64,000 nucleotides of DNA from Candidatus Saccharimonadales bacterium. GTDB lineage: Bacteria > Patescibacteriota > Saccharimonadia > Saccharimonadales > JACDFO01. Below are positions 1,276 to 46,356 of the stretch, piece by piece. Below the pieces are notes generated by a model, which saw nothing but the letters and a program-made list of their open reading frames with translations, was not told the DNA's origin and did not search any database. The position numbers and the translations under genes are program-made. The number at the start of each line of letters is the position of its first letter. Position 1 is the stretch's first letter. Location of the stretch: assembly GCA_038255465.1 (NCBI GenBank), contig JBBSLJ010000003.1, positions 285-64,284 on the forward strand, in the 5' to 3' direction.

Positions 1276-2844
1276 TCAACGGGGGTCGGCTGGTGGAGGA
1301 TTCTTTGACTTATCTGCGGCTTGTTTCTGCGCGGCTTCTTCGCGCATAGATTCAATGACTAGATCCTTTAGCGATTGACCGGCACGAGGGTCGGCATGTG
1401 GAGTAACTGGCCTTGAGTCGGTTGATGGTGTGACGCTTGGAAGACTTGGTGTAAAATACGCGTCGTCATATGCCACGGATGATCGTTTTTTCCTGATAAA
1501 CCATACCAGTCCGCCACAAATCAATCCTAACAGTAGCAAGACAAGCACAATGAGCCCCCACGAAACACCTTTTTTATCCGTTGCTATAGGTTCGCTATCA
1601 TTGCTTGCTGCTTGCTCAACAAGTTGTACGTCCGCTGCCACAATCCCAATGACAGGATCATTTAACGCTTCCGGCTGAACGCTATTTTGGAATATCTCTA
1701 CGTCGCGTTCATAGTCTTTGCCTTCATGGTTGAATGTCAATTTGTGAACACCTTCGGGCAATTGCTGTAGTTTAATTATGCCGTTCTCATCAGTTTTTCC
1801 CGAAAGCATGAGACTACCTATAGATGCTTCAATTCCAGCCACCGGACTATCCCCATTCAAAAAATACAAAACAACATCCAGGTTTAATGTCTTAAAGCTG
1901 GAAACTGGTGACGTACTAGATGTGCCGTCACTTTTAAGACGTACGATTTTATAATAATACGTCGTGTCGAGTTTCAGACTTTTTAACGTTATCGTGGTTG
2001 TATCCGGCGAAACAGCTTGAGTTTCTGATGTCTGATCCAATGTTTGATCAGTGGTGCCGTACATAATCTGCACTTTATCGGCATTGCCATTTGCGATTTG
2101 TAGCGATGTCACAAACGATCCGGCCGTGATAGTAGCATTGGTCTCGCTTGAAAGCGCTGGTACTACCGGTGTAGGTTGTGGAGCAGGACGGACTGTCGGA
2201 CGAGTAGTCGGTCTTGGAGCGGGAGCAGGTGCGGGCGTTGGGGCTGGTGCTGGTGTTGGAGCGGGAGCAGGTGCTGGTGTTGGCGTCGGTGTAGGGGTCG
2301 GCGTAGGCGTAGGAGTTGGCGCAGCTGGCAAGCAGTTATCTGGTATCCTATTGCCAATAAAATAATTGGGCCCGTTAACCGTCCTGAAGTTGTTAATGCT
2401 TAATGGTGCGTCAGCACCCGCGCCATAGTTATGCACCGTACCGCTTATGGTCGGTGATGAACCCTTGTAAACCCCACTAAACGTTGCCCTGAACCCGTAA
2501 ACATCAGAAGAGTTCCAGCCTCTAGCAACAAGGTCTTGATCAATCTCTGCTTCGCGGTATCCAGCCCGGTCGGTCGCTATTCTAACGAACTGACCAGTAC
2601 TAAGCCGCACCGTTACTTTTGGCTCAGCCCCTACTGGGGCCTGATCATCATGAGCCCAGCCATAAATTACCGTTGTGTTAGATTCCAGATAACAGTAGTC
2701 GGCATAGCCAGTAGGAGTAGAATTAGCAGCATAACCAGATTTAAGAAAAAGCACACCAGCAATACCGAATACAGCCAAAAACATCAAAATTAAAAAATAT
2801 TTTTGGGATTTTACGGTTTTTACGGGTGGCCTAAACTTTTTCAT
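1276..2844 (-). CDS. membrane-anchored surface protein with Pro-Thr/Pro-Ala linker, Fn3-like and CarboxypepD_reg-like domains
   Basis: It has an N-terminal signal/TM segment (YFLILMFLAVFGIAGVLF) and a ~57-aa PT/PA linker. An Fn3-like segment (TTYYYKIV) and a beta-sandwich segment (GKTDENGIIKLQQLPEGVHKL) follow, then a C-terminal TM (WGLIVLVLLLLGLICGGLVWF) plus RKKR. I prefer the ATG at 2844 (MKKFRPP) over the TTG at 2871 used by the track. Confidence 0.6.
   Translation of the reverse strand: MKKFRPPVKTVKSQKYFLILMFLAVFGIAGVLFLKSGYAANSTPTGYADYCYLESNTTVIYGWAHDDQAPVGAEPKVTVRLSTGQFVRIATDRAGYREAEIDQDLVARGWNSSDVYGFRATFSGVYKGSSPTISGTVHNYGAGADAPLSINNFRTVNGPNYFIGNRIPDNCLPAAPTPTPTPTPTPTPTPAPAPAPTPAPAPTPAPAPAPRPTTRPTVRPAPQPTPVVPALSSETNATITAGSFVTSLQIANGNADKVQIMYGTTDQTLDQTSETQAVSPDTTTITLKSLKLDTTYYYKIVRLKSDGTSSTSPVSSFKTLNLDVVLYFLNGDSPVAGIEASIGSLMLSGKTDENGIIKLQQLPEGVHKLTFNHEGKDYERDVEIFQNSVQPEALNDPVIGIVAADVQLVEQAASNDSEPIATDKKGVSWGLIVLVLLLLGLICGGLVWFIRKKRSSVAYDDAYFTPSLPSVTPSTDSRPVTPHADPRAGQSLKDLVIESMREEAAQKQAADKSKNPPPADPR
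2158..2328 (-). repeat. coding low-complexity tandem repeat (PT/PA dipeptide linker)
   Basis: It encodes AAPTPTPTPTPTPTPTPAPAPAPTPAPAPTPAPAPAPRPTTRPTVRPAPQPTP. The + strand shows GGTG/GGAG-type short periodic repeats. Confidence 0.8.
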
Positions 2845-2945
2845 GATTACTCTTAGTATATAAGTATACAAGAAAACGTGTCAGACTGGCGAGCCCAGTC
2901 ATAAAGCCATATGAACACCAACTGTTTTTTAGCTCGTGGCGCTGT

Positions 2946-4474: not shown

Positions 4475-5038
4475 ATGAGCCCTAACCAACTTGTTGATCA
4501 AGCAAAAAGTAAGTTTAAGCTAGCCGTAGAGCATTTCCGGGAAGAGCTTAAAAAAGTTCGGACCGGACGGGCGCATCCAAGCATGCTTGATGGGCTAATG
4601 GTTGAAGCCTATGGCGTGCAAATGCCGCTGATTCAGCTTGGACAAGTCACCGCCCCGGAAGGGCAGCTCTTACAGATCACTCCATTTGATCCAGGCAGCT
4701 TACAGGCAATTGCAACCGCAATTCGAAACAATCCGAACCTTGGAATGAACCCAATGGACGACGGCAAGGTCGTACGTGTACCGATTCCAGCATTGAATGA
4801 AGAGCGCCGCCGAGAATACGTAAAAGTCGTCAATGGCAAAGTCGAAGACACCATGATCTCCATGCGCAACATCCGCCATGAGGCAATGGATGCAATCGAA
4901 AAAGCCAAGAAAGACAAAGAAATCGGTGAAGATGACGCCAAGCGGCTTAAACAACAGATTGAAGAGGCTATAAACCACGCCAAAGCCGAAGCCGAATCCG
5001 CCGCAAAAACCAAAGAACAAGAAATAATGACGGTCTAA
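4475..5038 (+). CDS. frr: ribosome recycling factor
   Basis: The 187-aa protein contains FREELKKVRTGRAHPSMLD...RVPIPALNEERRREYVK, an RRF signature. Confidence 0.9.
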   Translation: MSPNQLVDQAKSKFKLAVEHFREELKKVRTGRAHPSMLDGLMVEAYGVQMPLIQLGQVTAPEGQLLQITPFDPGSLQAIATAIRNNPNLGMNPMDDGKVVRVPIPALNEERRREYVKVVNGKVEDTMISMRNIRHEAMDAIEKAKKDKEIGEDDAKRLKQQIEEAINHAKAEAESAAKTKEQEIMTV

Positions 5039-5076
5039 TTCTTATATCCGCAACTGCTACGGTATAATAAATCCAC

Positions 5077-5778
5077 ATGACTTTAAGTGAGACACAAACG
5101 CTGCCGACACATGTAGGGATAATTCTTGATGGTAACCGACGTTGGGCTAAAGAAAATGGCTTGGCGCCCCTCAAGGGTCACCGTCAGGGAATGGATGTCT
5201 TAAGAGATGTCAGTTTTTATGCATTTGAACGTGGCGTGCAGTACTTGTCGGCTTTTATTTTTTCGACTGAGAACTGGCGCCGTACCGACGAGGAAGTAAA
5301 TTACTTGATGGGCCTTACGGTCAAAGCAGTAGAAAAATATCTTGATGAATACCACCAGCGCGGAATTAAACTCGTAGCCCTGGGCCGTCGCAAGGGCGTT
5401 AGTCAAAAAGTTCTAGACGCAATTACACGTGCCGAGGAAAAGACCAGTGGCAATACGCAGGGAACACTAGCGCTCTGTTTTAATTACGGTGGCAAAGAAG
5501 AACTGGTTGACGCCGTAAAGCAGATGGTGGCTTCTGGCATCACGCCCCTCGAAATTACAACTGATGTAGTTGCTGGTGCATTGTATTACCCAGGAATCCC
5601 AGACGTGGACCTGATTATTCGCACCAGTGGCGAACAACGCACCAGTGGTTTTATGCTCTACCGTTCTGATTATGCCGAACTCTACTTTGTAAAAAAGCAC
5701 TGGCCGGCCTTTACGATTGATGATTTTAACGATGCGCTGATTGAATTTGATAAACGCAAAAGGAGATACGGTAAGTAA
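5077..5778 (+). CDS. uppS: undecaprenyl (isoprenyl) diphosphate synthase
   Basis: HVGIILDGNRRWA and RTSGEQRTSGFMLYRSDYAELYF are cis-prenyltransferase motifs. Confidence 0.9.
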   Translation: MTLSETQTLPTHVGIILDGNRRWAKENGLAPLKGHRQGMDVLRDVSFYAFERGVQYLSAFIFSTENWRRTDEEVNYLMGLTVKAVEKYLDEYHQRGIKLVALGRRKGVSQKVLDAITRAEEKTSGNTQGTLALCFNYGGKEELVDAVKQMVASGITPLEITTDVVAGALYYPGIPDVDLIIRTSGEQRTSGFMLYRSDYAELYFVKKHWPAFTIDDFNDALIEFDKRKRRYGK

Positions 5779-6902
5779 TGAGTATCCCGCTAATTGTTCT
5801 CGGATTTATTTTATTTATTGGTCTTGTGGTTCTGCATGAATTAGGGCACTTCCTGATAGCTCGCCGCAATAACGTTGAGGTTGAAGAATTTGGCCTAGGA
5901 TTTCCGCCCCGAGCGAAGGTGCTGGGCAAAAAGAACGGCACCGTGTATACCCTTAACTGGCTGCCACTTGGCGGTTTTGTAAAGCTAAAAGGCGAACATG
6001 ACATGGATACCGAGCCGGGCACATTTGGCGCGGCTAGTCTCTGGGCCAAGGTTAAAATCATGATGGCAGGCGTAGTTGTAAACGCGCTGACGGCATTTTT
6101 TATGCTAACTATTCTAGCCGCTATCGGCATGCCACAGATTATCGAGAATCAGTTTACCGTTGAGCGTGATACCAAGGTTGTCAGGCGTGATGTGTTGACC
6201 GCATACATCGAGCCAGGCTCGCCGGCACAAGCAGCCGGGCTGAGCGATCAGGATCAGCTAGTGGCCATCGGCAAACCGGGTAACATTACGACCATATCAA
6301 GTGCTGATCAACTACCCGACATTACTAAAAAATATGCCGGCCAAGATATTCAGTTAGTGTTTCAATCCGGTAGCGAACGCCGTGAAGCAATCACAAAACT
6401 TAGGACAACAGAAGAAGTTGAAGCCAGTAAAAATACAGACGACCCGAAGGGCTACTTAGGTATCGTACCTGCAGAATATGTTGTCAAGCGATCCACTTGG
6501 TCGTCGCCACTAGTTGCAGTCGGCTTCATGAAACAGATTACACAAGAGACATTTAAGGGCATTGGTAACGCGCTGGCCGGACTGTTCCAAGGCGACACCG
6601 AAAAAGCTTCAAGCAAGGTTGCCGGTATCGTAGGCATCGGATACGTCATAGGCAAGGGAAGTGCGCTAGGTTTGCAGTTTATCTTGCTGATAATCGCTGT
6701 TATATCACTCACATTGGCAATTATGAATGCGTTGCCGATTCCGGCGCTCGACGGGGGCCGGCTGTTTGTAACGCTACTGTTTCGGGCGATTAAAAAACCG
6801 CTAACTGAACGCAAAGAAGAACTGATACATGGTAGCGGCTTTGTGGTGCTGATGCTGCTATTCCTGGTTATAACCTGGGTTGATATCAACCGAATTACCT
6901 GA
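5778..6902 (+). CDS. rseP: RIP site-2 metalloprotease (M50, RseP-like) with PDZ domain
   Basis: It carries HELGHFLIARR (HExxH) and NALPIPALDGG (NxxPxxxLDG), with several TM segments. Its start overlaps the uppS stop. Confidence 0.85.
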   Translation: MSIPLIVLGFILFIGLVVLHELGHFLIARRNNVEVEEFGLGFPPRAKVLGKKNGTVYTLNWLPLGGFVKLKGEHDMDTEPGTFGAASLWAKVKIMMAGVVVNALTAFFMLTILAAIGMPQIIENQFTVERDTKVVRRDVLTAYIEPGSPAQAAGLSDQDQLVAIGKPGNITTISSADQLPDITKKYAGQDIQLVFQSGSERREAITKLRTTEEVEASKNTDDPKGYLGIVPAEYVVKRSTWSSPLVAVGFMKQITQETFKGIGNALAGLFQGDTEKASSKVAGIVGIGYVIGKGSALGLQFILLIIAVISLTLAIMNALPIPALDGGRLFVTLLFRAIKKPLTERKEELIHGSGFVVLMLLFLVITWVDINRIT

Positions 6903-11141: not shown

Positions 11142-12095
11142 ATGTTTTATTCTGAAAGTAAAGTTGAGACCACCCCAGAACAAGATAAGGCAGAACTAGC
11201 GTATGCTCAAGCATGGGCGTATCAAGCGGAACTCAACGCTACTAGTGATGGTGTTACTCGTGATAAAAGGCAACTTATACAGAATGAGCTTGATTCCATT
11301 TTCCCTTATATGGGTCAGCAGGTTTATGTGTCAGGGAATGGAGTCTACCCCGTATGCGATGTTGAAACAGGCGAGGTACTAGACGAAATCCATGGATTTG
11401 TATCTGGTCAACAGGGCCTACACGTTGGATTTTTTGTTGCTGAAATTAATGAAGGATCGACTCTTCGGTATCAGGTACTGCAACAAATAGCACTTGGACA
11501 AGTAAAGTCAAAACCGTGTCTTACGGTTGATCGACAGGAAACGATTAGTACTTTTGTTGATCTCGATGCTTCCGTATTACTCATTAGTGATATTAATAAT
11601 GTTTACAACCCGGACTCAGATGTAGAAGATGACGACTTCCACGACCGCATAGAACGAATGCTTGGGATGAGCAAAGAGCTTACCGGTCTATATAAATCAA
11701 CGACTTTTCGCCGGATGCGTCATGCAAAGCAGCTACGGACGGTCATGGACTTTTTAATAAATGCCGATCGGGAAACCCGTCTTCGTAATGTGGGCATTAT
11801 GACCGAGGCTGAATATGCATACACACCATCACTTAGCGACGGCTGGCGCCTCATACCACTACTGATAGAAAAAACGTTAATAGAAGGCACTATTGTAGGG
11901 CTAGACTCAACAGAATCAGTTACAATGAAAGCCAAGGCCATACGTAACAACGACGACCTTTTAGATAAAAACGCAGGATTATGCCTGGTAATTGACCCGA
12001 CTGAAGAATCAAAGGATGTACTTAGTCTGAGCGCTAACTCCGTCGTGCTATTGCCAACCGCGAGCCAAGAATTTGAAATAGCACTTAATGCCTAG
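11142..12095 (+). CDS. hypothetical protein (317 aa, no recognisable domain)
   Basis: Long ORF preceded by an AT-rich 126-bp spacer and an aaggaa SD-like sequence. I recognise no motif. Confidence 0.5.
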   Translation: MFYSESKVETTPEQDKAELAYAQAWAYQAELNATSDGVTRDKRQLIQNELDSIFPYMGQQVYVSGNGVYPVCDVETGEVLDEIHGFVSGQQGLHVGFFVAEINEGSTLRYQVLQQIALGQVKSKPCLTVDRQETISTFVDLDASVLLISDINNVYNPDSDVEDDDFHDRIERMLGMSKELTGLYKSTTFRRMRHAKQLRTVMDFLINADRETRLRNVGIMTEAEYAYTPSLSDGWRLIPLLIEKTLIEGTIVGLDSTESVTMKAKAIRNNDDLLDKNAGLCLVIDPTEESKDVLSLSANSVVLLPTASQEFEIALNA

Positions 12096-12996: not shown

Positions 12997-13941
12997 ATGG
13001 CAACAACTAAGAAATCAACCAAAGCAAAGACCAAAACTACCAAAAAGCCAGCAGTTAAAGCGCGCACCACTGCTGTTAAAACCACTCGCGCTACCAAGAC
13101 TACTAAAGTAACAAAGCAGCCCGTCGTAAAAAAACCGGTTGTAAAAGCAGCAGCAGTTGTTAAAGCGAAAACAACTGAATTAACCGCTAATACATTACGC
13201 AAACTTAATTTTGTTAAGGCATTTGTCTTTGCTGCGCTTGCAGTACTGGCCGGTGTATTAATGAGCAGCGCCAGCTATCCGGTTAGCATTGGCTACCAGG
13301 CTAAAGATGCACTAGTTAGCCTTACGGCAGGCAAGACGGCTTTTGTGCATGGCAACCAAAACCTGTTTGATATCGAGGTTCGCTGGTTAGTTGTGACAAT
13401 TCTAGGTTTGGCAGCCGTGTTCTCATTGTTAATTGCAACTAGATTACGCGCTAAATACGAAGCGACACTTACGGATGGTGTTTCATCAATGCGTTGGATT
13501 GGCTGGGGCATTACTGCTGCGCTCATGGTAGAAACGGTGGCACTTTTGTCTGGTGTGAGCGATATCCTGACGCTCAAGCTTATCGCCGGTTTAATGCTCG
13601 TAACCTGTGCGCTGGCATGGGTTGCTGAGAAGCGCAACAAGCAGGCCGGGCGACCTGCCTGGAGCGAATTTGTAGTCAGCCTTTTCACCGGCTCACTGCC
13701 GTGGATGTTAATCGGTGGCTATGCTATTGCAACGTGGGTGTGGGGTTTGATCCGCTATCCTTGGTATGTTTACGCGCTTTACGCAGCATTGCTGGTCGGT
13801 TTCATTACACTTACCTTCACACAGTACAAGCGAATTAATGGCTGGAAGAATACGCTCATTGTTGAGCGAAACTATCTTCTGATCGGTCTTGTTACTAAAG
13901 TTGCGTTTGCTGTTATCCTCATCCTTGCATTTCAGAAATAA
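12997..13941 (+). CDS. heliorhodopsin-like 7TM membrane protein with Lys/Thr-rich N-terminal tail
   Basis: Seven predicted TM helices. Segments align to heliorhodopsin 48C12 as I recall it: RW at the TM3 start, AWVAEK vs GWLQEK, GSLPW vs GIVPW, and ERNYLLIGLVTKVAFAV vs ERAYIVLSLVAKSALAW, which includes the TM7 Lys (K301). See finding. Confidence 0.55.
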   Translation: MATTKKSTKAKTKTTKKPAVKARTTAVKTTRATKTTKVTKQPVVKKPVVKAAAVVKAKTTELTANTLRKLNFVKAFVFAALAVLAGVLMSSASYPVSIGYQAKDALVSLTAGKTAFVHGNQNLFDIEVRWLVVTILGLAAVFSLLIATRLRAKYEATLTDGVSSMRWIGWGITAALMVETVALLSGVSDILTLKLIAGLMLVTCALAWVAEKRNKQAGRPAWSEFVVSLFTGSLPWMLIGGYAIATWVWGLIRYPWYVYALYAALLVGFITLTFTQYKRINGWKNTLIVERNYLLIGLVTKVAFAVILILAFQK

Positions 13942-16592: not shown

Positions 16593-17021
16593 ATGGCTGG
16601 TTTATTTATTCCTCGTAATCCAATCGAGACAGCGAAGGAGCTTCAATGGGAAATTGATTTGGCAGACCCAGACCATGCCCCAGTACTTGCGGAACATGCC
16701 GGGCGCATAATCGGAGACGTTGATGAAATATACGGTACTAAAAACCTATTGATACATACTCTTGGATGTTTTGTAATAAAAAGACGGATTATTCCTGGCG
16801 AAAGTGTGATTGAAGATACGCTTGGTGAAACGATTTTAGAAGGCAATATGGTTTATTTACATTACCTACAGCTTCAAGATGCCCCAAGAATTCAGACATT
16901 TAGTGTACTCATGCATGAGGTAGAGGCTACTGACCTTGCGGGTGGTGTGGCAACAAAAAGCAATATTACTTCACTCGTTGCCATACCTGTATTAGATATC
17001 CAAGAAGTTAGAGCTGCATGA
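16593..17021 (+). CDS. hypothetical protein (142 aa)
   Basis: ORF with its own promoter and SD. Its stop overlaps the rsmE start. No motif recognised. Confidence 0.5.
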   Translation: MAGLFIPRNPIETAKELQWEIDLADPDHAPVLAEHAGRIIGDVDEIYGTKNLLIHTLGCFVIKRRIIPGESVIEDTLGETILEGNMVYLHYLQLQDAPRIQTFSVLMHEVEATDLAGGVATKSNITSLVAIPVLDIQEVRAA

Positions 17022-18497: not shown

Positions 18498-18565
18498 ACC
18501 ATTTTCTTTTATAAATTCCAGGCCCTCATGTATAATCACCAACAATTCCAAGGAGTTGTTGAAGT

Positions 18566-20032
18566 ATGTCAGAAGTTAGGCCCAGGTTTCTTTTAGATGA
18601 AGCCGGTGAACCCACAGATGGTGTTGGCGGTTTCGAAACTGAGTTTGGATTTCGGTGTGAGGTAAAAGGAAACCGAGCACTAAACACTAAAGCAACTCAA
18701 GACGTAGCATTCGAAGCCGGTGGGATGTATACCTGTGCTTATAAGGCCGACGGAGATCGGGAATATGTAGACGTGGGTCATCATCCGGAAATCTCGACAG
18801 CAGAAGATACGGATCCAGTAATTTCCGCACACCGTGTGATGCGCTCTTTTGTTAAAGCCCAACAAAAACATCAAATTAGTGCAGCGCAAGTTGGAAAATG
18901 TATGGTATCCAAGGGAAGTGAAGCCGCAATAAAAGTAAATCTTTTTGCGAATACCTGCGATCCGCACGGCAATACATGGGCAAGCCATAATAATGTTTTA
19001 GCGCCGCGAGGCCTGCCATTTGGCGACTACGTATACCCGCTGCTTATTCACAATGTCAGTCACATTGTCTGGTCAGGCGCGGGTCACGTACAACCAACAG
19101 AGGATGGCGGTTACCGCTATTGTTTAAGTGAACGAGCCGATCATTTTTGGGATACAGTAAGTCTTAATACGACTCAAAACAGACCGTTAGTTAATACAAG
19201 AGACGTGCCGTATGCTGACAAGCAACGCTTTCGTCGCATCCATGACATATCGGGTGACGCGGTGATGAGTCCATTCGTCTATGCGCTCAGAAGAGCGAGC
19301 GTCGCAATCATCTTGCGAGCATGCGGTTTAGGTGTAAAGTTCGATGACCTGATGCCAGAGAACCCAATTGCAGCTATCAGGACTATAAATCATGATCCTA
19401 CGCTGAAGGCAAAAGTAAGCTTGGCAGATGGTAGAAAAATGAGCGGATTAGACTTAGAACGATACGTTATGGAACGTTCGCTCGTGGCTACCAGAAGAGC
19501 TAAATGCTTAACAGCTCAAGATGAGTTATTTGGTAAAAAATGGGAAAAGCTGCTTGATGATCTTTCGCAAGACCCGGCGCTTTGCGAACGACGAGTTAAC
19601 TGGGTGGTTAAAGAGGAGTTAATTTTGCGTGAGCTGGAGGCTAAGTTTGCGCAAATAAACAGTCTTGGCAAAGATAGAGTGTCGGCCGGAGCTGTAGCAC
19701 TGCAAAAATCTATAGAATTTCATCGTTTGTCGCCGTATGAGGGCGCAGGCATGAAGTTGCTAAGAAGAGGTTTTTTTGAGGATTCCCCATCTGCCGACGT
19801 ATTAGAAAATGGCGTGCCATTACCGAATACCAGGGCCAAAGTCAGGGGTCAGGCAATTGGCCGCCTTATGACATTGAATCCGGAGGATGGTCGATACAAT
19901 CAGATCTTTTCGACCAGTTGGGACGTCCTTACACTACACTGGGTTACCAACGGCAGGACGATGATGAACGATCCGTTTAAAGCCGAAATGCCGGAATCCC
20001 TTGATCGACGCCTGCAACAACTCGGAGTCTAG
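18566..20032 (+). CDS. Pup-ligase/deamidase family protein (PafA/Dop homolog)
   Basis: GGFETEFG, EYVDVGHHPEISTAE, YCLSERADHFWDTVSLNTTQNRPLVNTRDVPYADKQRFRRIHDISGD, NPIAAIRTINHDPTLKAKVSLADGRKMSGLDL and TSWDVLTL align with mycobacterial PafA/Dop as I remember them. Confidence 0.8.
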   Translation: MSEVRPRFLLDEAGEPTDGVGGFETEFGFRCEVKGNRALNTKATQDVAFEAGGMYTCAYKADGDREYVDVGHHPEISTAEDTDPVISAHRVMRSFVKAQQKHQISAAQVGKCMVSKGSEAAIKVNLFANTCDPHGNTWASHNNVLAPRGLPFGDYVYPLLIHNVSHIVWSGAGHVQPTEDGGYRYCLSERADHFWDTVSLNTTQNRPLVNTRDVPYADKQRFRRIHDISGDAVMSPFVYALRRASVAIILRACGLGVKFDDLMPENPIAAIRTINHDPTLKAKVSLADGRKMSGLDLERYVMERSLVATRRAKCLTAQDELFGKKWEKLLDDLSQDPALCERRVNWVVKEELILRELEAKFAQINSLGKDRVSAGAVALQKSIEFHRLSPYEGAGMKLLRRGFFEDSPSADVLENGVPLPNTRAKVRGQAIGRLMTLNPEDGRYNQIFSTSWDVLTLHWVTNGRTMMNDPFKAEMPESLDRRLQQLGV

Positions 20033-20086
20033 TCTGACGCGAATCTTTTATATATCCCTCCGGGCATAGGTTATAATGAAAAACAT

Positions 20087-20413
20087 ATGGCGCTAGAATT
20101 TACCAATATTCCCGACAGAACCGGTCCGGCAGTTTATCTTGTAGGCATGAGTATGCTCGAAAACCGACTTACTGCCTACGGCCAGGAACTTGACAAAGCA
20201 ACAGACGAAAAGACGCAGGTAGTCTATCTTGACGTCAGAAGCAAAGACGGAGCTCAAGTCGCAGATTTTTATGATATTCAGGAATCAAGTCTTCCGGCTG
20301 TCCTGATAGTTATGGACGACGATACGATTTATAAAAGTTGGTTTGGTCAGGATTTACCAAGGCCCGGAGATGTAGCACACGACGTAAAACGAATATCCGG
20401 ACATTCAGTGTAA
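20087..20413 (+). CDS. hypothetical protein (108 aa, possibly thioredoxin-like fold)
   Basis: ORF with a TATAAT box 9 nt upstream. The strand-helix pattern (VVYLDVRS...LPAVLIVMDDDTIYKSWFG) is only suggestive. Confidence 0.4.
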   Translation: MALEFTNIPDRTGPAVYLVGMSMLENRLTAYGQELDKATDEKTQVVYLDVRSKDGAQVADFYDIQESSLPAVLIVMDDDTIYKSWFGQDLPRPGDVAHDVKRISGHSV

Positions 20414-20441
20414 CGCTGAAGTTCTGGGCTATAATAGACAT

Positions 20442-29100: not shown

Positions 29101-30234
29101 ATGACAAAGTTCCAAACTATTAAACAAAAAATCCCAATCATGAAAACAAAAACCCAGCAGCTAGTCAAACTATTTTTTATACCCGTTATCGCAGTTACGC
29201 TGTCACTCGGTGGGCTTGTTGGTGCCGAGACTTTTCAATCGCAAATTAATAACCTTAATACGCAAAACAGTGGCTTGCAGGCTCAGCGCCAGGACTTGCT
29301 GCAAGAGGCCGAGAGCCTAGAAGCAGTAATTTCAAGTCTGGGATCTCAGATTGCAGAGTTGCAAAGCCAGATCAACAACAATCAGGCCAAAATGGTCGAC
29401 TTGAAGCGTCAAATAATAGAAGCAGAAGCCGAAATAGTTCGTCAACAAGAGCTGATGGGCGATAGCATTCGTGCGATGTATCTTGAAGGTGACATATCTA
29501 CCCTTGAAATATTGGCATCGAGCAAAGATCTCAGCGAATATTTAGACCGCGAACAGTATCGCAACGAAGTCCAGAATAAGGTAAAAACAACACTCGATAG
29601 AATACGTGAACTACGTGAGCAGCTTGAAGCTCAAAAATTGGAAATAGAAAAGATTTTAGCTGATCAACGGGCCATTCAGGTGCAACTTGATGTTCAGCGC
29701 GGCGAGCAGTCGCGGCTATTATCTCTAAATGAGGGCCAGCGTAGCAGCTTAAGTAGCCAGATAAAATCCAATACTGGCAAAATTGCCGACCTAAGGCGTC
29801 AGCAGGCAGCAGCTAACGCGCGACTTTTTGGCAGCCGGGGTACTATTAATGTGCCGGACACGACAGGCTATCCGTGGGCAAATGTGTCTTTTCCAAACAC
29901 CGTTTCTGATCCATGGGGGATGTACAAGCGCCAATGTGTCAGCTATACCGCTTGGAAGGTCTGGAAAAGCGGCCGACACATGCCGTTCTGGGGCGGCCGC
30001 GGCAACGCAAACCAGTGGGATGACAATGCCCGCGCTGCCGGTATACCCGTAGATGGCAGTCCTCGCGTCGGTGACATTGCAGTTAGCAATAGTGGCTACT
30101 ACGGCCACGTTATGTATGTTGAGGCCGTCTACGACGACGGAACAATCTATGTCAGTCAGTACAATGCCAACTGGGGCGGCACATACTCGGAAGCTCGAGT
30201 TAACATCGGCAGTTTAGTCTTCATACATTTTTAA
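29101..30234 (+). CDS. coiled-coil + CHAP domain peptidoglycan hydrolase (PcsB-like), paralog 1
   Basis: Signal/TM, then ~230 aa of heptad-rich Q/E/L coiled coil, then C-terminal CHAP (QCVSYTAWKV ... GHVMYVEAV). It lies directly downstream of ftsEX. Confidence 0.8.
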   Translation: MTKFQTIKQKIPIMKTKTQQLVKLFFIPVIAVTLSLGGLVGAETFQSQINNLNTQNSGLQAQRQDLLQEAESLEAVISSLGSQIAELQSQINNNQAKMVDLKRQIIEAEAEIVRQQELMGDSIRAMYLEGDISTLEILASSKDLSEYLDREQYRNEVQNKVKTTLDRIRELREQLEAQKLEIEKILADQRAIQVQLDVQRGEQSRLLSLNEGQRSSLSSQIKSNTGKIADLRRQQAAANARLFGSRGTINVPDTTGYPWANVSFPNTVSDPWGMYKRQCVSYTAWKVWKSGRHMPFWGGRGNANQWDDNARAAGIPVDGSPRVGDIAVSNSGYYGHVMYVEAVYDDGTIYVSQYNANWGGTYSEARVNIGSLVFIHF

Positions 30235-30237: not shown

Positions 30238-30500
30238 CATTTCGGCGCTACTTCGTAGCTCTCCCGACCAACTTTTGACAGCAAAAGTTGGGCAAAACTG
30301 CTGGGCCACTTCAGCTCTTGATGACTTCGCTGTCAAAACTACAAGGCTCGGAGAACTCAGGCCTTGCTTTCATACTTGGGATAGCAAGGCCTTCAAACAA
30401 GCTCCTCGCAACTACTTGTAGTTATTGACACTCAGGCATCAGGAGCTTCCGCCATGCCCAGACACCAACCCCCATGGCCATTTGGCTAAAGACGAAATGT
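30238..30500 (+). repeat. left copy of a ~262-nt structured inverted-repeat element
   Basis: It is the reverse complement of 31345-31605, with two near-identical blocks (59/62 and 58/63 nt) and covarying hairpins between them. See finding. Confidence 0.85.
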
Positions 30501-30542
30501 ATTTATATTCGCAAAAGAACAGGGAGAGTATACTCTTTATAA

Positions 30543-30737
30543 ATGGGAGATATTGTAAACATGAAGCTGAATTCATCAGAACTAGTAATAAAATTGGCTG
30601 ACGCTGCGAGTCAAATTGTCAGTCGAGATGATACACAGTACTATGCACAAGAAACTGTCGAGGCGCATTTACGGAAGTCGCCTCGTACTAACACCTTAAA
30701 GTCGTCAATCGGAGACCTGGAAGAACTTTTAAAATGA
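30543..30737 (+). CDS. hypothetical small protein (64 aa; alternative start 30561)
   Basis: ORF with TATACT 8 nt upstream. Its stop overlaps the next gene's start (ATGA). No motif recognised. Confidence 0.4.
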   Translation: MGDIVNMKLNSSELVIKLADAASQIVSRDDTQYYAQETVEAHLRKSPRTNTLKSSIGDLEELLK

Positions 30738-31339
30738 GTGAGATTAAAGCCATTGGGTTTGATTGGGGCGGGGTGTTAAATGGCAGACCTGGGAAGTTTT
30801 TTGGTCAGAGTGTAGCTACACTGCTGGGCATTTCTTATCAACAATATCTAGATGCTTATTTTAAGCATAACAAAAAGGTCAACCGAGGCGAAGTGACATG
30901 GGAAGAGCTGTGGACGCTTGTGCTGACAGATTTGGGTAAGCGAGATAAAGTGCATGCAATCATGAAGTTGAGTCAGGAAGCAAACGCTGAAAGGCTGAAC
31001 CAAGATGTTTTGGATTTGGCAGACAAACTTCGTGCCCTGGGATATAAAATAGGCTTATTGAGCAATAACACCCACGAAAAAGCTGCCAGTATGAGACAGA
31101 CTGGCCTAGATAAACACTTTGACGTCTTTCATATTTCTGCAGAAACGGGCTTGGTAAAACCTGAACCACATGCCTTTACTCACTTCTCAGAGGAGCTGGG
31201 CGTTAAGCCAAGCGAGTTAGTGTTTATAGATGATTCCGAAAAAAGCCTAAGCACCGCCACAGAAGTTGGGTTTACGTCAATACTATTCGATACCTATGAA
31301 GAACTAATCCAAGACCTAACGAATTTAAAAATAATTTAA
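30734..31339 (+). CDS. HAD superfamily hydrolase (subfamily IA-like phosphatase)
   Basis: Motif I FDWGGVL, motif II LLSNN and motif IV FIDDSEK. Confidence 0.75.
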   Translation: MSEIKAIGFDWGGVLNGRPGKFFGQSVATLLGISYQQYLDAYFKHNKKVNRGEVTWEELWTLVLTDLGKRDKVHAIMKLSQEANAERLNQDVLDLADKLRALGYKIGLLSNNTHEKAASMRQTGLDKHFDVFHISAETGLVKPEPHAFTHFSEELGVKPSELVFIDDSEKSLSTATEVGFTSILFDTYEELIQDLTNLKII

Positions 31340-31344
31340 TTAAC

Positions 31345-31605
31345 ACATTTTGTCTTTAGCGAAATGGCCGTGGGGGTTGGGGTCTGGGCATGGCGAAAGC
31401 TCCTGATACGTGAATGGCAAAGCCACAATAGACAGCGAAAGATTATTTGAAGCCCGCCATCCCAAGTAACAGGGCGGGCTGAGTTCCTTGAGCGTTGTGG
31501 CGCTTGACAATGAACGTCTCAAGAGCTGGAGTGGCCCAGCAGTTTTGTCCAACTTTTGCTGTCAAAAGGTGGTCGGGAGAGGTCGCCGTGGCGACCGTCG
31601 AAATG
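31345..31605 (-). repeat. right copy (inverted) of the ~262-nt structured element
   Basis: See 30238-30500. It sits between the HAD gene stop and the promoter of the second PcsB-like gene. Confidence 0.85.
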
Positions 31606-31688: not shown

Positions 31689-32873
31689 ATGACAAACAAA
31701 AAGCAAAAAATATTACCTAAACCTATACATGGCCTACTGCTACTCATTTTAGTAGCAGGTTTTGTCGTTTCGCCTCTGTCAAAAACCGTTAGGGCAGACC
31801 GTTTTAGCGACCAAATCAATGAGCTTAAAAACCAAAATACTCAAAATGAACAATCCGTTAAGGCTCTCCAGGTTGAAGCCGGCAATATTGCCGAAGTAAT
31901 TGCGGGATTACAAACTCAAATAAATGGCCTCCAGGATCAGATAAATGCCAACCAAGCCAAGTCAGACGAACTGGCCCGCCAAATTACTGAAGCTGAAATT
32001 GAACTGGACAAGCAGAAGAACCTGATGGGCCAGAATATTCGGGCTATGTATTTAGAGGGTGATATTACTACGCTTGAAATGCTGGCTTCTAGCAAAGATC
32101 TTAGTGAATTTATCGACAGGCAACAGTACCGCGATGCGGTAAAGGACAAAATTAAGTCCACGCTAGACCGTATTAGCATCTTAAAAGCTCAGCTGAATAC
32201 CGCTAAAGAAGAGACTGAACGTCTGATTCAAGAAGATAATGTCCTAAAAGCCCAGGCAGACGCGAATAAGGCTGAACAGAGGCGACTTCTAGGGTTTAAC
32301 CAAGCCCAACAGAGCGAGTACAACAAACAGATTAAGGAAAACAAGGCGCAGATTACTGAACTGAAGCGCCAACAGGTACTTGAAAACATCCGTCTTTTTG
32401 GTGCGGGTGGGGCTCCCGGCATTCCTGGCGGTGGCGGCTATCCGTGGGGTAACGCCTATTGTGTCCATACCAATAAGGTTAGTGGCCCTTGTGATAACTA
32501 CGACTGGTACTTCAGGGGCGGTCCATGGGACGTTTGGGGTTACGGCTACCGCAACTGCACGTCATGGGTGGCATATAAATTGGCTGCCGATGGCAAAACC
32601 GGTTTTAGCTACCTTGGAAATGCAGCAGACTGGCCAAGCGCAGCTGCGGCCCGTGGCTATAAAGTTAGTTATGGAAGCGGTGCACGGGTTGGTGACGCGG
32701 CGGTTAACCCGAATGGTTACTATGGCCATGTAATGTACGTCGAGGCAGTATTTGACGATGGCCGAGTGGTCGTAAGCGACTATAACCGACTTGGAGACGG
32801 CTTGTATCGTGGGCCTGAGGGAAATAGTGCAGGGGTAATTAATCAAAGCGGTTTGGTGTTTATAAGCTTCTAA
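31689..32873 (+). CDS. coiled-coil + CHAP domain peptidoglycan hydrolase (PcsB-like), paralog 2
   Basis: Same architecture as 29101-30234. They share IRAMYLEGDI(S/T)TLE(I/M)LASSKDLSE and GYYGHVMYVEAV. The CHAP Cys context is NCTSWVAYKL. Confidence 0.8.
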   Translation: MTNKKQKILPKPIHGLLLLILVAGFVVSPLSKTVRADRFSDQINELKNQNTQNEQSVKALQVEAGNIAEVIAGLQTQINGLQDQINANQAKSDELARQITEAEIELDKQKNLMGQNIRAMYLEGDITTLEMLASSKDLSEFIDRQQYRDAVKDKIKSTLDRISILKAQLNTAKEETERLIQEDNVLKAQADANKAEQRRLLGFNQAQQSEYNKQIKENKAQITELKRQQVLENIRLFGAGGAPGIPGGGGYPWGNAYCVHTNKVSGPCDNYDWYFRGGPWDVWGYGYRNCTSWVAYKLAADGKTGFSYLGNAADWPSAAAARGYKVSYGSGARVGDAAVNPNGYYGHVMYVEAVFDDGRVVVSDYNRLGDGLYRGPEGNSAGVINQSGLVFISF

Positions 32874-42163: not shown

Positions 42164-42555
42164 TCTTTAAGCCGATTTTTAAGGTCAGGCACAAAGTTGG
42201 GGTGAGCCAGAATTTCCGTCGTGCTCATGAGCTTCCAATCCTGACCTTCGTTAGTAAAGGCTATGACTAAAATTTGCTTGTTGGTGATAGGTGCGACCAT
42301 AAAATATGAAGGTGCGTCAGGATACTTGGCTGAAGGGTAGTGTTTTTTCCAGATAATGCTTTTGGCGCTGATTTTGATTGATAGTTCTTCACTTGTCTCT
42401 CTTATGGCGCAGGCTTCAGGCGATTCATTGTCCTCTCTGCCACCTCCTGGAAAATCCCAATATCCAGCAAAATCGAGCCCGGGTTTATCGTCTCTCAAAA
42501 TAACCACTGCCTGGTCTCCACATAGTAAAACTATTTTTACACCATTGAATTCCAT
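42142..42555 (-). CDS. NUDIX hydrolase
   Basis: Nudix box GGGREDNESPEACAIRETSEELSI. Confidence 0.85.
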   Translation of the reverse strand: MEFNGVKIVLLCGDQAVVILRDDKPGLDFAGYWDFPGGGREDNESPEACAIRETSEELSIKISAKSIIWKKHYPSAKYPDAPSYFMVAPITNKQILVIAFTNEGQDWKLMSTTEILAHPNFVPDLKNRLKDYLDSKL

Positions 42556-42601
42556 AGTATTAGACTACCAACAACAGAAATCTCATGCTACCATAACCGT
42601 T

Positions 42602-45768: not shown

Positions 45769-46356
45769 ATGAACGATAACCACACAAATAACGAAGCTGC
45801 CGATATGGGAATACCCCGACTACCGGTTTTGCGCCAGCGGCATGGTCATTGGCATAATGAGGTGGGAAGGTTGTTGGCGAGATACGAGACGTATGCCATA
45901 CAACGTCCGGGTTCTAATATTCCCGTGATTGAGCATAACCGGCCGGCCGTAGAATTACAAAAGGATAGACAATCATATCTGCAGCCAGGGTTGATTCAGC
46001 TACTCAAATCAGGCAAGAACGGTGGGCTTGTTGTCTGGCTATCATTAGAAGGGAAGCAAATTGCTCGGCCTAAATCACCCATCCAGGAATATGGTTTTAA
46101 GGCAGAAGAACCAGATGATATGTATGATGCTCTGCTTGTTGAACTGGCCGGTCACCAGGCGGTCTTGCAAGGAGTACGCGGTGAAACCACGACTGATTTG
46201 TTTATGGACCCAGAGGATAGTTATGGGTTACCGCCGGTTGAAGCATTTGCACGGGCCTGTATTTTTACCTGCATGCTGCCGTCAGAAAAAATAGTCCGTG
46301 GTTGTACGCCATTGCTACAACGGCTTGTATCTTTACAAGAAGATAGCCCCAAATAA
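45769..46356 (+). CDS. hypothetical protein, tandem paralog B (195 aa)
   Basis: DMYDALLVELAGHQAV / LPPVEAFARACIFTC match paralog A. Both are the same length. Confidence 0.55.
   Translation: MNDNHTNNEAADMGIPRLPVLRQRHGHWHNEVGRLLARYETYAIQRPGSNIPVIEHNRPAVELQKDRQSYLQPGLIQLLKSGKNGGLVVWLSLEGKQIARPKSPIQEYGFKAEEPDDMYDALLVELAGHQAVLQGVRGETTTDLFMDPEDSYGLPPVEAFARACIFTCMLPSEKIVRGCTPLLQRLVSLQEDSPK

What the first reader, a model, noticed from the sequence alone, without database searches (positions are those of the whole stretch)
18566..20032. Orphan Pup-ligase/deamidase (PafA/Dop) homolog without Pup, Mpa/ARC or proteasome genes nearby, and with an altered HENY motif
The 488-aa protein clearly belongs to the PafA/Dop carboxylate-amine ligase family. 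Evidence includes GGFETEFG, EYVDVGHHPEISTAE, YCLSERADHFWDTVSLNTTQNRPLVNTRDVPYADKQRFRRIHDISGD, and LADGRKMSGLDL, which matches Dop LADGRELTGLAL.

Neither flanking spacer (18498-18565, 20033-20086) can encode a Pup or UBact-like peptide ending in GGQ/GGE. The downstream 108-aa ORF does not end that way either.

The motif I remember as invariant in both PafA and Dop, G-(C/S)-H-E-N-Y, reads A-S-H-N-N-V here (codons 18983-18997). That may change metal or ATP handling.

A pupylation-type enzyme in a reduced genome with no visible proteasome suggests a tagging, detagging or other amide-forming function outside the classical Pup-proteasome system. The upstream neighbour is a Cas4-like Fe-S nuclease. 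I cannot tell whether that linkage is meaningful.
Basis: partly seen in the sequence, partly recalled or inferred. Interest (0 to 1): 0.55.

Follow-up and report, generated by a model that had tools for sequence, protein, structure and literature searches.

The report
Orphan Pup-ligase-like enzyme in Saccharibacteria
This gene encodes an apparently intact enzyme of the family that tags proteins for the bacterial proteasome, but it belongs to a rare, undescribed branch found in tiny epibiotic Saccharibacteria and never sits near a tag, unfoldase or proteasome gene, so what it modifies is unknown.

Summary
ORF 18566-20032 (+) encodes a 488-aa protein of the Pup_ligase family (Pfam E=1e-70). Its predicted fold spans the full length of Dop and PafA (TM about 0.8).

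It is neither PafA nor Dop by NCBI's curated cut-offs. It belongs to a monophyletic clade of about 42 full-length cluster representatives. The labelled members are Saccharibacteria MAGs.

All listed Mg2+ ligands, the catalytic Asp and the phosphate- and Pup-binding Arg residues are conserved. HENY does read HNNV. However, the E and Y are not among the listed metal ligands, and they vary freely across the clade (E in 23 of 42).

No Pup, proteasome or Mpa gene was found in the window or in 12 other clade loci. In control loci, 56 of 76 canonical PafA/Dop genes have a Pup gene within 10 kb.

The Cas4-like neighbour is not functionally linked. None of 80 loci holding its closest relatives carries the ligase, and in 38 of them serS follows it directly.

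Best reading: an active, accessory, stand-alone carboxylate-amine ligase, or possibly an amidase, whose substrate is encoded elsewhere or comes from the host. This is a new variant of a known kind and of moderate interest.

The parts
18566..20032 (+). Gene for a 488-aa PafA/Dop-family (Pup_ligase) protein. It is a member of a distinct Saccharibacteria clade.
   Evidence: ORF. Pfam PF03136 E=1.3e-70. NCBIfam PafA 224.6 bits and Dop 186.9 bits, both below cut-off. AF2 pLDDT 93.3. Foldseek TM 0.77-0.83 to Dop and PafA. Clade membership.
18508..18556 (+). Promoter-like site TTTATA-17-TATAAT (18508-18536) and Shine-Dalgarno AAGGAG (18551-18556), 9 nt before the ATG.
   Evidence: Consensus scan, 10 of 12 matches. 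The scan found fewer sites than in shuffled sequence, so this is only suggestive. Sequence read directly.
18566..18625 (+). N-terminal extension of about 20 residues, absent from canonical PafA and Dop. Clade consensus: KLLxNxDGSPxDRIVGFETEY.
   Evidence: Alignments A1 and A2. In canonical sequences the GxExE motif starts at residue 1-20; in the clade it starts at about 20-26. pLDDT of the first two 10-residue blocks is 78 and 94.
18629..18643 (+). GhExE nucleotide/Mg2+ motif G22-F-E24-T-E26.
   Evidence: Invariant in A2. E24 and E26 correspond to Dop E8 and E10, which are Mg2+ ligands (PMC8599861). GhExE is described as the ATP-binding motif in PMC7947786.
18764..18805 (+). Y67-V-D69-V-G-H-H73-P-E75-I-S-T-A-E80: catalytic Asp (D69), Mg2+ ligands Y67 and E75, and a PafA-type 'VG' insertion after the Asp.
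   Evidence: Pairwise alignment with Dop Y92, D94 and E99. Invariant in all 27 aligned sequences. The VG insertion is PafA-specific according to Table 1 of PMC7947786.
18980..18997 (+). A-S-H141-N142-N143-V144, the counterpart of canonical G-C-H-E-N-Y. H141 is the Mg2+ ligand (Dop H155) and N143 is kept. E is replaced by N and Y by V.
   Evidence: Translation. Alignment. H is 100% and N 83% conserved in the clade; E is only 55% and Y 17%. Per-sequence list. Beta-strand 140-147 in the model.
19142..19183 (+). 'Alpha-loop' region H193-F-W-D-T-V-S-L-N-T202-T203-Q-N-R206. T202, T203 and R206 are the shared functional residues. H193, W195, D196 and S199 are PafA-like; L200 is Dop-like.
   Evidence: Mapping onto Table 1 and section 8 of PMC7947786. 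Alignment. Clade variability.
19199..19243 (+). R212 (Dop R227, phosphate contact), R223, R224 and H226 (Dop H241, Mg2+ ligand), within NTRD...FRRIH.
19832..19921 (+). Signature of the C-terminal domain: T422-R423-A-x-x-R427 and W452 (Dop W453, nucleotide-pocket stack).
   Evidence: Invariant in the clade and in PafA/Dop. The role of W453 is given in PMC8599861.
17712..18497 (+). Context only: upstream PD-(D/E)XK (Cas4-like) nuclease gene. It is a syntenic neighbour and not functionally linked.
   Evidence: Pfam, NCBIfam and PADLOC. None of 80 loci with close relatives carries a ligase.
20087..20413 (+). Context only: a lineage-specific 108-aa ORF between the ligase and serS. It has a faint thioredoxin-like match and is not a Pup-like tag.
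   Evidence: It ends ...GHSV. Thioredoxin_6 E=0.047. It is absent at this position in L001 and in the P0005 and P0012 loci. A homologue lies elsewhere in the ligase-free locus L090.

Best explanation
The gene encodes a functional, stand-alone enzyme of a previously undescribed clade of the PafA/Dop carboxylate-amine ligase family. All named loci of this clade are Saccharibacteria.

Shown:
- The full PafA/Dop fold, including the C-terminal domain.
- Conservation of every listed Mg2+ ligand, the catalytic Asp, and the Arg/Thr residues that hold the phosphate and the C-terminal Glu of Pup.
- No Dop loop.
- Native base composition, a promoter-like site and a Shine-Dalgarno sequence of its own.
- A patchy, accessory distribution.

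Inferred mechanism: like PafA, the enzyme binds ATP and Mg2+ in the beta-sheet cradle. It phosphorylates a gamma-carboxylate, most likely a C-terminal Glu of a small protein or peptide. D69 then acts as the base, and the activated acyl group is transferred to an amine, most likely a lysine side chain, forming an isopeptide bond.

The carboxylate donor is not encoded next to the gene in any lineage examined. It is therefore either an unrecognised Pup analogue elsewhere in the genome or a molecule acquired from the actinobacterial host.

The HENY-to-HNNV change is a clade-wide relaxation at two positions that are not metal ligands. It is not an active-site defect.
For: Family and fold.

Catalytic inventory: Dop E8, E10, Y92, D94, E99, H155, R227 and H241 correspond to window E24, E26, Y67, D69, E75, H141, R212 and H226, and all are kept. 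Of 51 positions conserved in both PafA-like and Dop sequences, 39 are kept in the window protein and 36 are at least 85% conserved in the clade. The shared alpha-loop residues T202, T203 and R206 are kept.

Clade: P0001-P0020 share 39-53% identity, followed by a gap to about 30%. About 42 full-length representatives score above 350 bits. The clade is monophyletic in 100 of 100 NJ bootstraps and lies outside canonical PafA and Dop. Strong clade-specific motifs (58 invariant columns) argue for purifying selection.

PafA-like traits: no Dop loop (45 residues between GxExE and YxD, against 76-129 in the 22 sequences with the Dop-type 'HA' after the catalytic Asp); the VG insertion; H193, W195 and D196; and PafA HMM scores higher than Dop HMM scores in all clade members tested.

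Orphan status: no Pup-HMM hit at E<=10 in six-frame translations of the window and 12 clade loci. The same HMM finds 62 Pups in control loci, and 56 of 76 control loci hold an ORF ending in GGQ or GGE. No homologue of any gene flanking canonical pafA/dop, apart from generic ABC ATPases and a few other unrelated genes.

Expression signals. GC content is 0.466 against a window mean of about 0.455.
Against: - No substrate was identified, so the chemistry is inferred only from homology.
- The direction of the reaction is unresolved. At positions that discriminate PafA from Dop, the window protein is mixed (3 PafA-like, 4 Dop-like) and the clade is mostly unconserved.
- The AF2 alpha-loop is non-helical, but the same is true of a bona fide PafA control, so this is uninformative.
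- The gene is dispensable. None of the 80 loci holding the closest relatives of the neighbouring nuclease carries it. One relative (L009) has it split across two frames.
- The window protein departs from the clade consensus at several well-kept positions: R166H, E214V, E254G, Q298E.
- The rest of the genome could not be searched.
Confidence: 0.5

Rival explanations
1. It is a Dop-like amidase or isopeptidase rather than a ligase. It would hydrolyse a gamma-glutamyl amide or isopeptide bond, for example removing Pup from, or deamidating, host-derived material or an unknown endogenous conjugate. It would use the conserved Asp and a bound phosphate as Dop does.
For: Dop and PafA share the same active site. 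The window residues V68, S77, L200 and A232 are Dop-like, and S451 is Dop-like (my own mapping onto Table 1). The best Foldseek and phmmer hits are Dop, though only marginally. The Dop loop is not required for Dop activity (PMC7947786).
Against: There is no Dop loop. The PafA-type VG insertion follows the catalytic Asp, and H193, W195 and D196 in the alpha-loop are PafA-like. PafA HMM scores exceed Dop HMM scores by 20-46 bits in every clade member tested. A hydrolase with no ligase and no tag in sight has nothing obvious to hydrolyse.
Confidence: 0.2
2. It is a classical Pup-proteasome (or UBact) system that is merely dispersed. The pup or UBact, mpa and prcAB genes would lie elsewhere in the genome, outside the 64-kb window.
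For: Only 64 kb, roughly 5-10% of a typical Saccharibacteria genome (size from my own knowledge), could be inspected. pafA is not always adjacent to pup in Actinobacteria: 20 of 76 control loci had no GGQ/GGE ORF within the DNA held.
Against: There are no Pup hits in the 13 clade loci searched (window plus 12), which cover about 8 independent genomic contexts, whereas about 74% of control loci hold one. No Pup or UBact family hit among 55 small ORFs of the window in NCBIfam or Pfam. No proteasome, Mpa or PafBC homologues. The protein fails both equivalog cut-offs by more than 300 bits. No paper in the held library links pupylation or the proteasome with Saccharibacteria.
Confidence: 0.12
3. 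It is a small-molecule carboxylate-amine ligase. The PafA/Dop scaffold would have been re-used to join, for example, glutamate or another acid to an amine, as in the related YbdK/GCS2 and gamma-glutamylcysteine ligases, with no protein tag involved.
For: The fold superfamily includes such enzymes: Foldseek matches 1r8g and 1tt4 (YbdK) and GCL at E of 1e-7 to 1e-3. No protein partner was found. The discriminating and alpha-loop positions are unconstrained in the clade.
Against: The PafA/Dop-specific C-terminal domain and the long helical region are fully retained, with TM about 0.8 over the whole length against about 0.4 for YbdK. The Arg and Thr residues that hold Pup's C-terminal Glu are invariant.
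Confidence: 0.1
4. It is a decaying relic of an old horizontal transfer, from Actinobacteria or another Pup-bearing lineage, with no current function.
For: Distribution is patchy. Only 4 hits at 41-46% identity turned up among the representative genomes of 185,579 species. Every 90% cluster looked up has 1-2 members. The gene is absent from all 80 loci with close relatives of the neighbouring gene. It is frameshifted or split in L009. The HENY motif is relaxed.
Against: Full-length intact ORFs occur in about 42 divergent representatives. All catalytic residues are conserved at about 40% mean identity, and clade-specific invariant motifs exist. Composition is native and expression signals are good. 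The AF2 model is confident.
Confidence: 0.08
5. It is a host-directed effector. The epibiont would deliver the enzyme into its actinobacterial host to add or remove host Pup and so redirect host proteolysis.
For: Cultivated Saccharibacteria grow on Actinobacteria (abstract of PMC10633639), the phylum that uses Pup. The control loci include Actinomycetaceae with Pup (L071, L079). The best tblastn matches outside the clade are actinobacterial, Acidimicrobiia at 32% identity. The residues that contact Pup's C-terminal Glu are kept.
Against: There is no signal peptide or recognisable secretion signal. The gene is not next to secretion genes. The clade is not nested inside actinobacterial PafA or Dop. 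The idea is purely circumstantial.
Confidence: 0.07

Closest known systems
PafA, Pup--protein ligase (NCBIfam TIGR03686; structures 4B0T, 4BJR)
   Same: - Same fold over the whole length (TM 0.72-0.79).
- GhExE motif, catalytic Asp, Mg2+ ligands and Arg/Thr phosphate/Glu contacts.
- No Dop loop.
- The VG insertion after the catalytic Asp.
- H, W and an acidic residue at the start of the alpha-loop.
- Best-scoring curated model.
   Different: - 224.6 bits against a cut-off of 551.3. A genuine PafA (P0032) scores 560.
- 23-26% identity to the solved structures.
- HENY reads HNNV.
- An extra conserved N-terminal segment of about 20 residues.
- No pup, prcAB, mpa or pafBC nearby.
- Found in Saccharibacteria rather than Actinobacteria or Nitrospirae.
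Dop, depupylase/deamidase (NCBIfam TIGR03688; structures 4B0R, 5LRT, 7OXY)
   Same: - Same fold (TM 0.77-0.83) and the best phmmer and Foldseek hits.
- The same metal ligands and catalytic Asp.
- A few Dop-type residues: V68, S77, L200, A232, S451.
   Different: - 186.9 bits against a cut-off of 492.3.
- Lacks the Dop loop of about 40 residues.
- Lacks the H-A pair after the catalytic Asp.
- No pup next to it, although dop is normally adjacent to pup (from my own knowledge).
Single PafA/Dop homologues of Planctomycetes and other sporadic non-actinobacterial members (Hecht et al. 2020, PMC7947786), and UBact-associated enzymes (recalled from memory)
   Same: - They lie outside the canonical PafA and Dop clades, at about 29-31% identity to both.
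- Non-canonical residues at the E of HENY. P0039-P0043 read HVN, HLN or HCN; their taxa are unknown.
- Sporadic distribution.
   Different: - The Planctomycetes proteins align partly with the Dop loop; those I saw with HxN variants are longer (530-635 aa).
- The UBact systems are described as having the tag gene in the same cluster (from memory).
- The Saccharibacteria clade is separate in the NJ tree and has no tag nearby.
YbdK/GCS2 and gamma-glutamylcysteine ligases, glutamine synthetase (carboxylate-amine ligase superfamily)
   Same: The beta-sheet cradle of the N-terminal domain and the chemistry: ATP-dependent acyl-phosphate formation followed by attack of an amine.
   Different: Only a partial structural match (TM about 0.4, 10-12% identity). 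They lack the PafA/Dop C-terminal domain. Their substrates are small molecules.

Membership tests
Pup_ligase family (Pfam PF03136; PafA/Dop carboxylate-amine ligases) | Score above Pfam's gathering threshold over most of the model | tested here: met
   239.1 bits against 25; model positions 70-429 of 441.
Pup_ligase family (Pfam PF03136; PafA/Dop carboxylate-amine ligases) | GhExE nucleotide motif, Mg2+ ligands (Dop E8, E10, Y92, E99, H155, H241) and catalytic Asp (D94) | tested here: met
   Window G22-F-E24-T-E26, Y67, D69, E75, H141 and H226.
Pup_ligase family (Pfam PF03136; PafA/Dop carboxylate-amine ligases) | Two-domain PafA/Dop fold, including the small C-terminal domain | tested here: met
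   AF2 pLDDT 93.3, pTM 0.93. Foldseek TM 0.77-0.83 over 484-496 aligned columns to 7oyh, 4b0r and 4bjr.
Pup_ligase family (Pfam PF03136; PafA/Dop carboxylate-amine ligases) | Strict G-C/S-H-E-N-Y motif | tested here: not met
   The window reads A-S-H-N-N-V. Only H and N are family-wide. E is 98-100% conserved in canonical PafA-like and Dop sequences but 55% in this clade.
PafA (Pup--protein ligase, TIGR03686 equivalog) | Score at or above the curated equivalog cut-off (551.3 bits) | tested here: not met
   224.6 bits. Clade members P0002, P0016 and P0020 score 198-267; the control PafA P0032 scores 560.3.
PafA (Pup--protein ligase, TIGR03686 equivalog) | No Dop loop; V-G insertion after the catalytic Asp | tested here: met
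   45 residues between GxExE and YxD; D69-V70-G71.
PafA (Pup--protein ligase, TIGR03686 equivalog) | PafA-type alpha-loop (HxWEGxSSA..RS) in a helical conformation | tested here: inconclusive
   The sequence HFWDTVSLNTTQN matches 4 of 9 positions. AF2 gives a non-helical segment, but it does so for the genuine PafA control as well.
PafA (Pup--protein ligase, TIGR03686 equivalog) | A Pup substrate encoded in the genome, usually in the same gene cluster | tested here: not met
   No Pup in the window or in 12 clade loci, by HMM and by C-terminal motif, with a positive control. The rest of the genome could not be tested.
PafA (Pup--protein ligase, TIGR03686 equivalog) | ATP-dependent ligation of Pup-Glu to lysine | not testable with these tools
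   Needs biochemistry.
Dop (depupylase/deamidase, TIGR03688 equivalog) | Score at or above the curated equivalog cut-off (492.3 bits) | tested here: not met
   186.9 bits; the control Dop P0025 scores 572.8.
Dop (depupylase/deamidase, TIGR03688 equivalog) | Dop loop (insertion of about 37-40 residues before the second strand) and H-A after the catalytic Asp | tested here: not met
   The insertion is absent (alignment A1; spacing). The window has V-G-H after D69 where Dop has H-A.
Pup-proteasome system (pup, dop, pafA, mpa/arc, prcB, prcA) | Co-located genes for the tag, the AAA+ unfoldase and the 20S subunits | tested here: not met
   No homologue of any gene flanking canonical pafA/dop in 76 control loci was found in the window or the clade loci, apart from ABC ATPases, a response regulator and a few other unrelated genes. 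No Pfam hits among the unannotated ORFs of the window that were tested. Whole genome not testable.
UBact-type system | A small UBact gene near the ligase/deamidase homologue | tested here: inconclusive
   No Pup/UBact-type hit in NCBIfam or Pfam for 55 small ORFs. No plausible ORF ends in G[QE]. I could not obtain a UBact positive control from the Verrucomicrobia loci.

The most novel reading that the evidence does not exclude
Saccharibacteria carry a third, Pup-gene-independent branch of the PafA/Dop family. It would either tag proteins with a so-far unrecognised modifier or act on the Pup system of the actinobacterial host. The second option would be a bacterial parasite manipulating another bacterium's ubiquitin-like pathway.
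Probability: 0.15. Interest if true: 0.85.

Novelty: new variant of a known kind. Interest (0 to 1): 0.5.

Why it matters
Pupylation is regarded as an actinobacterial invention with a few horizontally acquired outposts. In those, the enzyme travels with its tag.

Here there is a conserved, apparently active enzyme clade with no tag, unfoldase or proteasome gene near it. It occurs in obligate epibionts whose known hosts are the Pup-using Actinobacteria.

That implies either an undiscovered modifier or substrate, or a cross-organism use of the pathway. Both ideas can be tested directly with one recombinant protein.

The work also corrects a motif assumption. Within HENY, only H and N are conserved across the family.

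Tried and rejected
1. Functional link to the Cas4-like nuclease. The adjacency holds in 7 syntenic loci. However, 4 other clade loci first examined have unrelated neighbours, and the loci fetched later (L086, L168, L169) also lack it. None of 80 metagenomic loci with 64-82% identical nucleases has any Pup_ligase-family hit. Rejected.

2. The downstream 108-aa ORF as the tag. It has the wrong C-terminus, is lineage-specific, and has a homologue elsewhere in a ligase-free locus. Rejected.

3. Conserved small neighbour ORFs across divergent loci (L002, L004, L005, L008, L086, L168, L169, L170). None is shared.

4. NUDIX or Exo_endo_phos neighbours recur loosely, but they are not orthologous and not adjacent in the window. 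Dropped.

5. Anti-phage defence. No PADLOC hit for the ligase.

6. Phage or mobile origin. No homologue in IMG/VR, and the base composition is native.

7. Alpha-loop conformation from AF2 as a test of ligase versus hydrolase. A genuine PafA control gave the same non-helical prediction, so the test is uninformative.

8. Co-variation of the lost E142 with R166. None found.

9. Finding UBact in Verrucomicrobia loci as a positive control. This failed.

10. Literature on the role of the E in HENY, and on pupylation in Saccharibacteria or other CPR bacteria. Nothing found.

11. Fetching the window's own contig record. The protein is not on record.

12. Rooting the tree to decide whether the clade is closer to PafA or to Dop. 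This is not possible without an outgroup; my split test was uninformative.
Full report
**1. The observation**

The ORF at 18566-20032 (+) is real: it starts with ATG and encodes 488 aa. It matches Pfam Pup_ligase PF03136 at E=1.3e-70. It also matches the solved structures of Dop (4b0r, E=6.6e-41) and PafA (4b0t, E=6.8e-38).

An AlphaFold2 model built on 27 aligned sequences is confident (pLDDT 93.3, pTM 0.93). It superposes over its full length on Dop and PafA: TM 0.77-0.83 over 484-496 aligned columns. The next-best folds are the YbdK/GCL carboxylate-amine ligases, at TM about 0.4.

The spacers are 68 and 54 nt. The downstream 108-aa ORF ends ...GHSV.

**2. The organism and the local context**

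The window carries housekeeping genes in the order S2, EF-Ts, RRF, UppS, RseP, ProRS, GreA, LysRS ... RsmE, PD-(D/E)XK nuclease, ligase, ORF108, SerRS, HPF, SecA, M16 peptidase, PrfB, FtsE and FtsX.

The same order recurs in seven loci: L001, the loci of P0005 and P0012, and L006, L007 and L009. L006, L007 and L009 are titled uncultured Candidatus Saccharibacteria MAGs. The window therefore comes from a Saccharibacteria genome.

GC content around the gene (0.466) matches the window (about 0.455). The 68-nt spacer holds a promoter-like TTTATA-17-TATAAT and an AAGGAG Shine-Dalgarno sequence 9 nt before the ATG.

**3. A distinct clade, neither PafA nor Dop**

NCBI's equivalog models give 224.6 bits for PafA (cut-off 551.3) and 186.9 bits for Dop (cut-off 492.3). 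Three other clade members behave the same way (198-267 and 177-220 bits). A genuine PafA (P0032) scores 560 on the PafA model and 328 on the Dop model. A genuine Dop (P0025) scores 573 on the Dop model and 387 on the PafA model. The clade is thus further from both enzymes than they are from each other.

The word-seeded search found 20 relatives at 39-53% identity, then a gap to about 30%. The exhaustive profile search of 1.84 billion representatives found 4,860 family members. About 42 of them are full-length and score above 350 bits with the clade profile.

In neighbour-joining trees the clade is monophyletic (100 of 100 bootstraps). It lies outside the canonical PafA and Dop groups, which are monophyletic in 100 and 95 of 100 replicates. 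The tree cannot be rooted with the data I have.

Every 90%-identity cluster I looked up has one or two members. Among the representative genomes of 185,579 species, four loci matched at 41-46% identity, against 36% or less for all others. Three are labelled Saccharibacteria and one simply 'bacterium'.

**4. Is the active site altered?**

The Mg2+-coordinating residues listed for A. cellulolyticus Dop are E8, E10, Y92, E99, H155 and H241. D94 is the catalytic residue and R227 contacts the phosphate (PMC8599861). From the pairwise alignment these correspond to window E24, E26, Y67, E75, H141, H226, D69 and R212. All are conserved. So are the alpha-loop T202, T203 and R206, which are functionally important in both enzymes (PMC7947786), and R223, R224, R423, R427 and W452.

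The two changed residues, E to N142 and Y to V144, alternate with H141 and N143 on a predicted beta-strand (140-147). I infer that they face away from the cradle.

Across the clade, H is 100% and N 83% conserved (S in the remainder). E is present in only 23 of 42 representatives and is replaced by N, S, T, M, A, I, R, G, L, D, Y, H or Q. Y is present in 17%. Other non-canonical family members also read HVN, HLN or HCN.

The inference of altered metal or ATP handling is not supported. I found no documented role for that Glu in the papers I read.

**5. Ligase or hydrolase?**

Hecht et al. (PMC7947786) list the positions that separate Dop from PafA. They name the conformation of the alpha-loop as the main discriminator.

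- PafA-like features of the window protein: no Dop loop (45 residues between GxExE and YxD, against 76-129 in Dop); the PafA-type V-G insertion after the catalytic Asp; A79; H193, W195, D196 and S199.
- Dop-like features: V68, S77, L200, A232 and S451.

Most discriminating positions are simply unconserved in the clade.

The AF2 model shows a non-helical alpha-loop. A genuine PafA modelled from the same alignment does too, so this test is uninformative.

I lean towards ligase, mainly on architecture and on the consistently higher PafA HMM scores. The question remains open.

**6. Orphan status**

As a positive control, I scanned the 76 non-clade loci fetched from the genome collection. Of these, 56 contain an ORF ending in ...KGGQ/E within the DNA held.

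An HMM built from 61 such Pups finds 62 hits in the control loci. It finds none, even at E<=10 with filters off, in any of the following:
- six-frame translations of the window and nine clade loci;
- three further clade loci (one chance-level match at E=3.2);
- the 80 metagenomic loci.

No intergenic ORF of the window ends in G[QE]. Fifty-five small ORFs give no Pup or UBact hit in NCBIfam or Pfam.

All ORFs of at least 100 aa from the control loci include proteasome subunits, Mpa/ARC and PafBC. Among them, only ABC ATPases, a response regulator and a few other unrelated genes find homologues in the window or the clade loci.

The clade loci span about eight independent contexts: the syntenic group, L002, L004, L005, L008, L086, L168 and L169. 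A further orphan, L170, belongs to a neighbouring non-canonical group. By contrast P0072, just outside the clade at 319 bits, sits next to a proteasome subunit gene.

The rest of the genome could not be examined.

**7. The Cas4-like neighbour**

The nuclease-ligase adjacency reflects synteny within one sub-lineage. I fetched 80 metagenomic loci that encode the closest relatives of the nuclease (64-82% identity).
- None has any hit to the clade HMM or the family HMM.
- In 38 of them serS starts within 600 bp after the nuclease gene.
- In most of the rest, unrelated genes fill the gap: a toxin-antitoxin pair, hydrolases, an MscS-like channel and large surface proteins.

The closest relative (L088, 82% identity) goes straight from the nuclease to serS. 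The ligase is therefore an accessory gene sitting in a variable slot, and it has probably been lost repeatedly. One relative (L009) has it split across two reading frames. No homologue exists in the viral collection, and there is no PADLOC match.

**8. Interpretation**

The most likely reading is an active, stand-alone member of a new Saccharibacteria clade of the PafA/Dop family. It would carry out the family's chemistry: ATP/Mg2+-dependent phosphorylation of a gamma-carboxylate, followed by transfer to an amine, with D69 as the base. It would act on a partner that is not genetically linked.

Purifying selection is indicated by intact ORFs in about 42 representatives sharing about 40% mean identity. 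There are also 58 invariant columns among 18 members, including clade-specific motifs such as SRIVWSGAG, LSEKA and YHxLxPxEGxGM.

Alternatives, in decreasing order of likelihood:
- a Dop-like amidase;
- a dispersed classical system;
- a small-molecule ligase;
- a decaying relic;
- a host-directed effector.

The last idea is attractive because cultivated Saccharibacteria live on Actinobacteria (PMC10633639 abstract). At present it rests only on circumstance.

**9. Novelty**

The held literature contains no paper that links pupylation, PafA or the proteasome with Saccharibacteria. Hecht et al. list sporadic homologues in NC10, Armatimonadetes, Verrucomicrobia, Nitrospinae, Firmicutes, Proteobacteria and Planctomycetes, but none in CPR bacteria. 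From memory, the UBact paper mentions some CPR lineages; I could not check this.

I rate the finding as a new variant of a known kind: a known fold and chemistry, in a new clade, with the defining partner genes missing. Interest is moderate (0.5). The result is solid and testable, but the key claim rests on absence of evidence within limited sequence.

Noticed in passing
C-termini of clade proteins (P0002, P0003, P0005, P0007, P0009-P0011, P0014, P0016, P0019, P0020, P0045, P0050, P0057, P0059, P0060, P0062, P0063, P0067); window 20018-20032 for comparison: About 40% of clade members (19 of 48) end in a conserved L-[DE]-x-[IV]-A-A-COOH tail. About 6% (8 of 135) of the other family members end in AA. 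The window protein ends LQQLGV instead. The tail resembles the ssrA-type 'LAA' degron, which might mean regulated turnover or docking to an AAA+ partner.
   Followed up: partly
L009:4928-6363: In one Saccharibacteria MAG the orthologous ligase is split into two overlapping ORFs in different frames (4928-5215 and 5149-6363). This is either a frameshift on the way to a pseudogene or an assembly error.
   Followed up: no
window 18498-20441 and loci L088-L167: The junction between the PD-(D/E)XK nuclease gene and serS is a variable insertion slot in related genomes. It holds nothing (38 loci) or unrelated cargo: a VapBC-like toxin-antitoxin pair, alpha/beta-hydrolases, an MscS-like channel, or an 889-aa surface protein.
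   Followed up: partly
window 30259-30506 and 31339-31581: Two inverted-repeat pairs (arms of 78 nt and 82 nt, 87-88% complementary; the copies span about 250 bp each) flank a HAD-hydrolase gene (30734-31339). This unit lies between two paralogous coiled-coil/CHAP-type cell-wall hydrolase genes (29101-30234 and 31689-32873). There is no tRNA or Rfam match. It could be a duplicated regulatory RNA or the ends of a mobile element.
   Followed up: partly
window 45162-45752 and 45769-46356: Two tandem paralogous genes (196 and 195 aa; 28% identity over 128 aa, E=1e-8) with no Pfam or PADLOC match. Function unknown.
   Followed up: partly
window 12997-13941: A heliorhodopsin gene (Pfam E=1.4e-35) with a Lys/Thr/Ala-rich N-terminal extension of about 65 residues. 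The heliorhodopsin sits in the same conserved block in related loci.
   Followed up: no
window 11142-12095, 16593-17021, 42356-43312, 49357-50481: Several sizeable ORFs (317, 142, 318 and 374 aa) have no match in Pfam. Some were also checked against NCBIfam and PADLOC. The 142-aa ORF upstream of rsmE has a 36% identical counterpart at the same position in L088 and ends in ...VRAA.
   Followed up: no
window 1-64000: No tRNA gene and no Rfam family reaches threshold anywhere in the 64 kb.
   Followed up: yes
window 1276-2871 (-): A 531-aa membrane-anchored protein with a long (PT)n/(AP)n proline-rich linker and fn3 / purple-acid-phosphatase-N-like domains. It is probably a surface protein.
   Followed up: no
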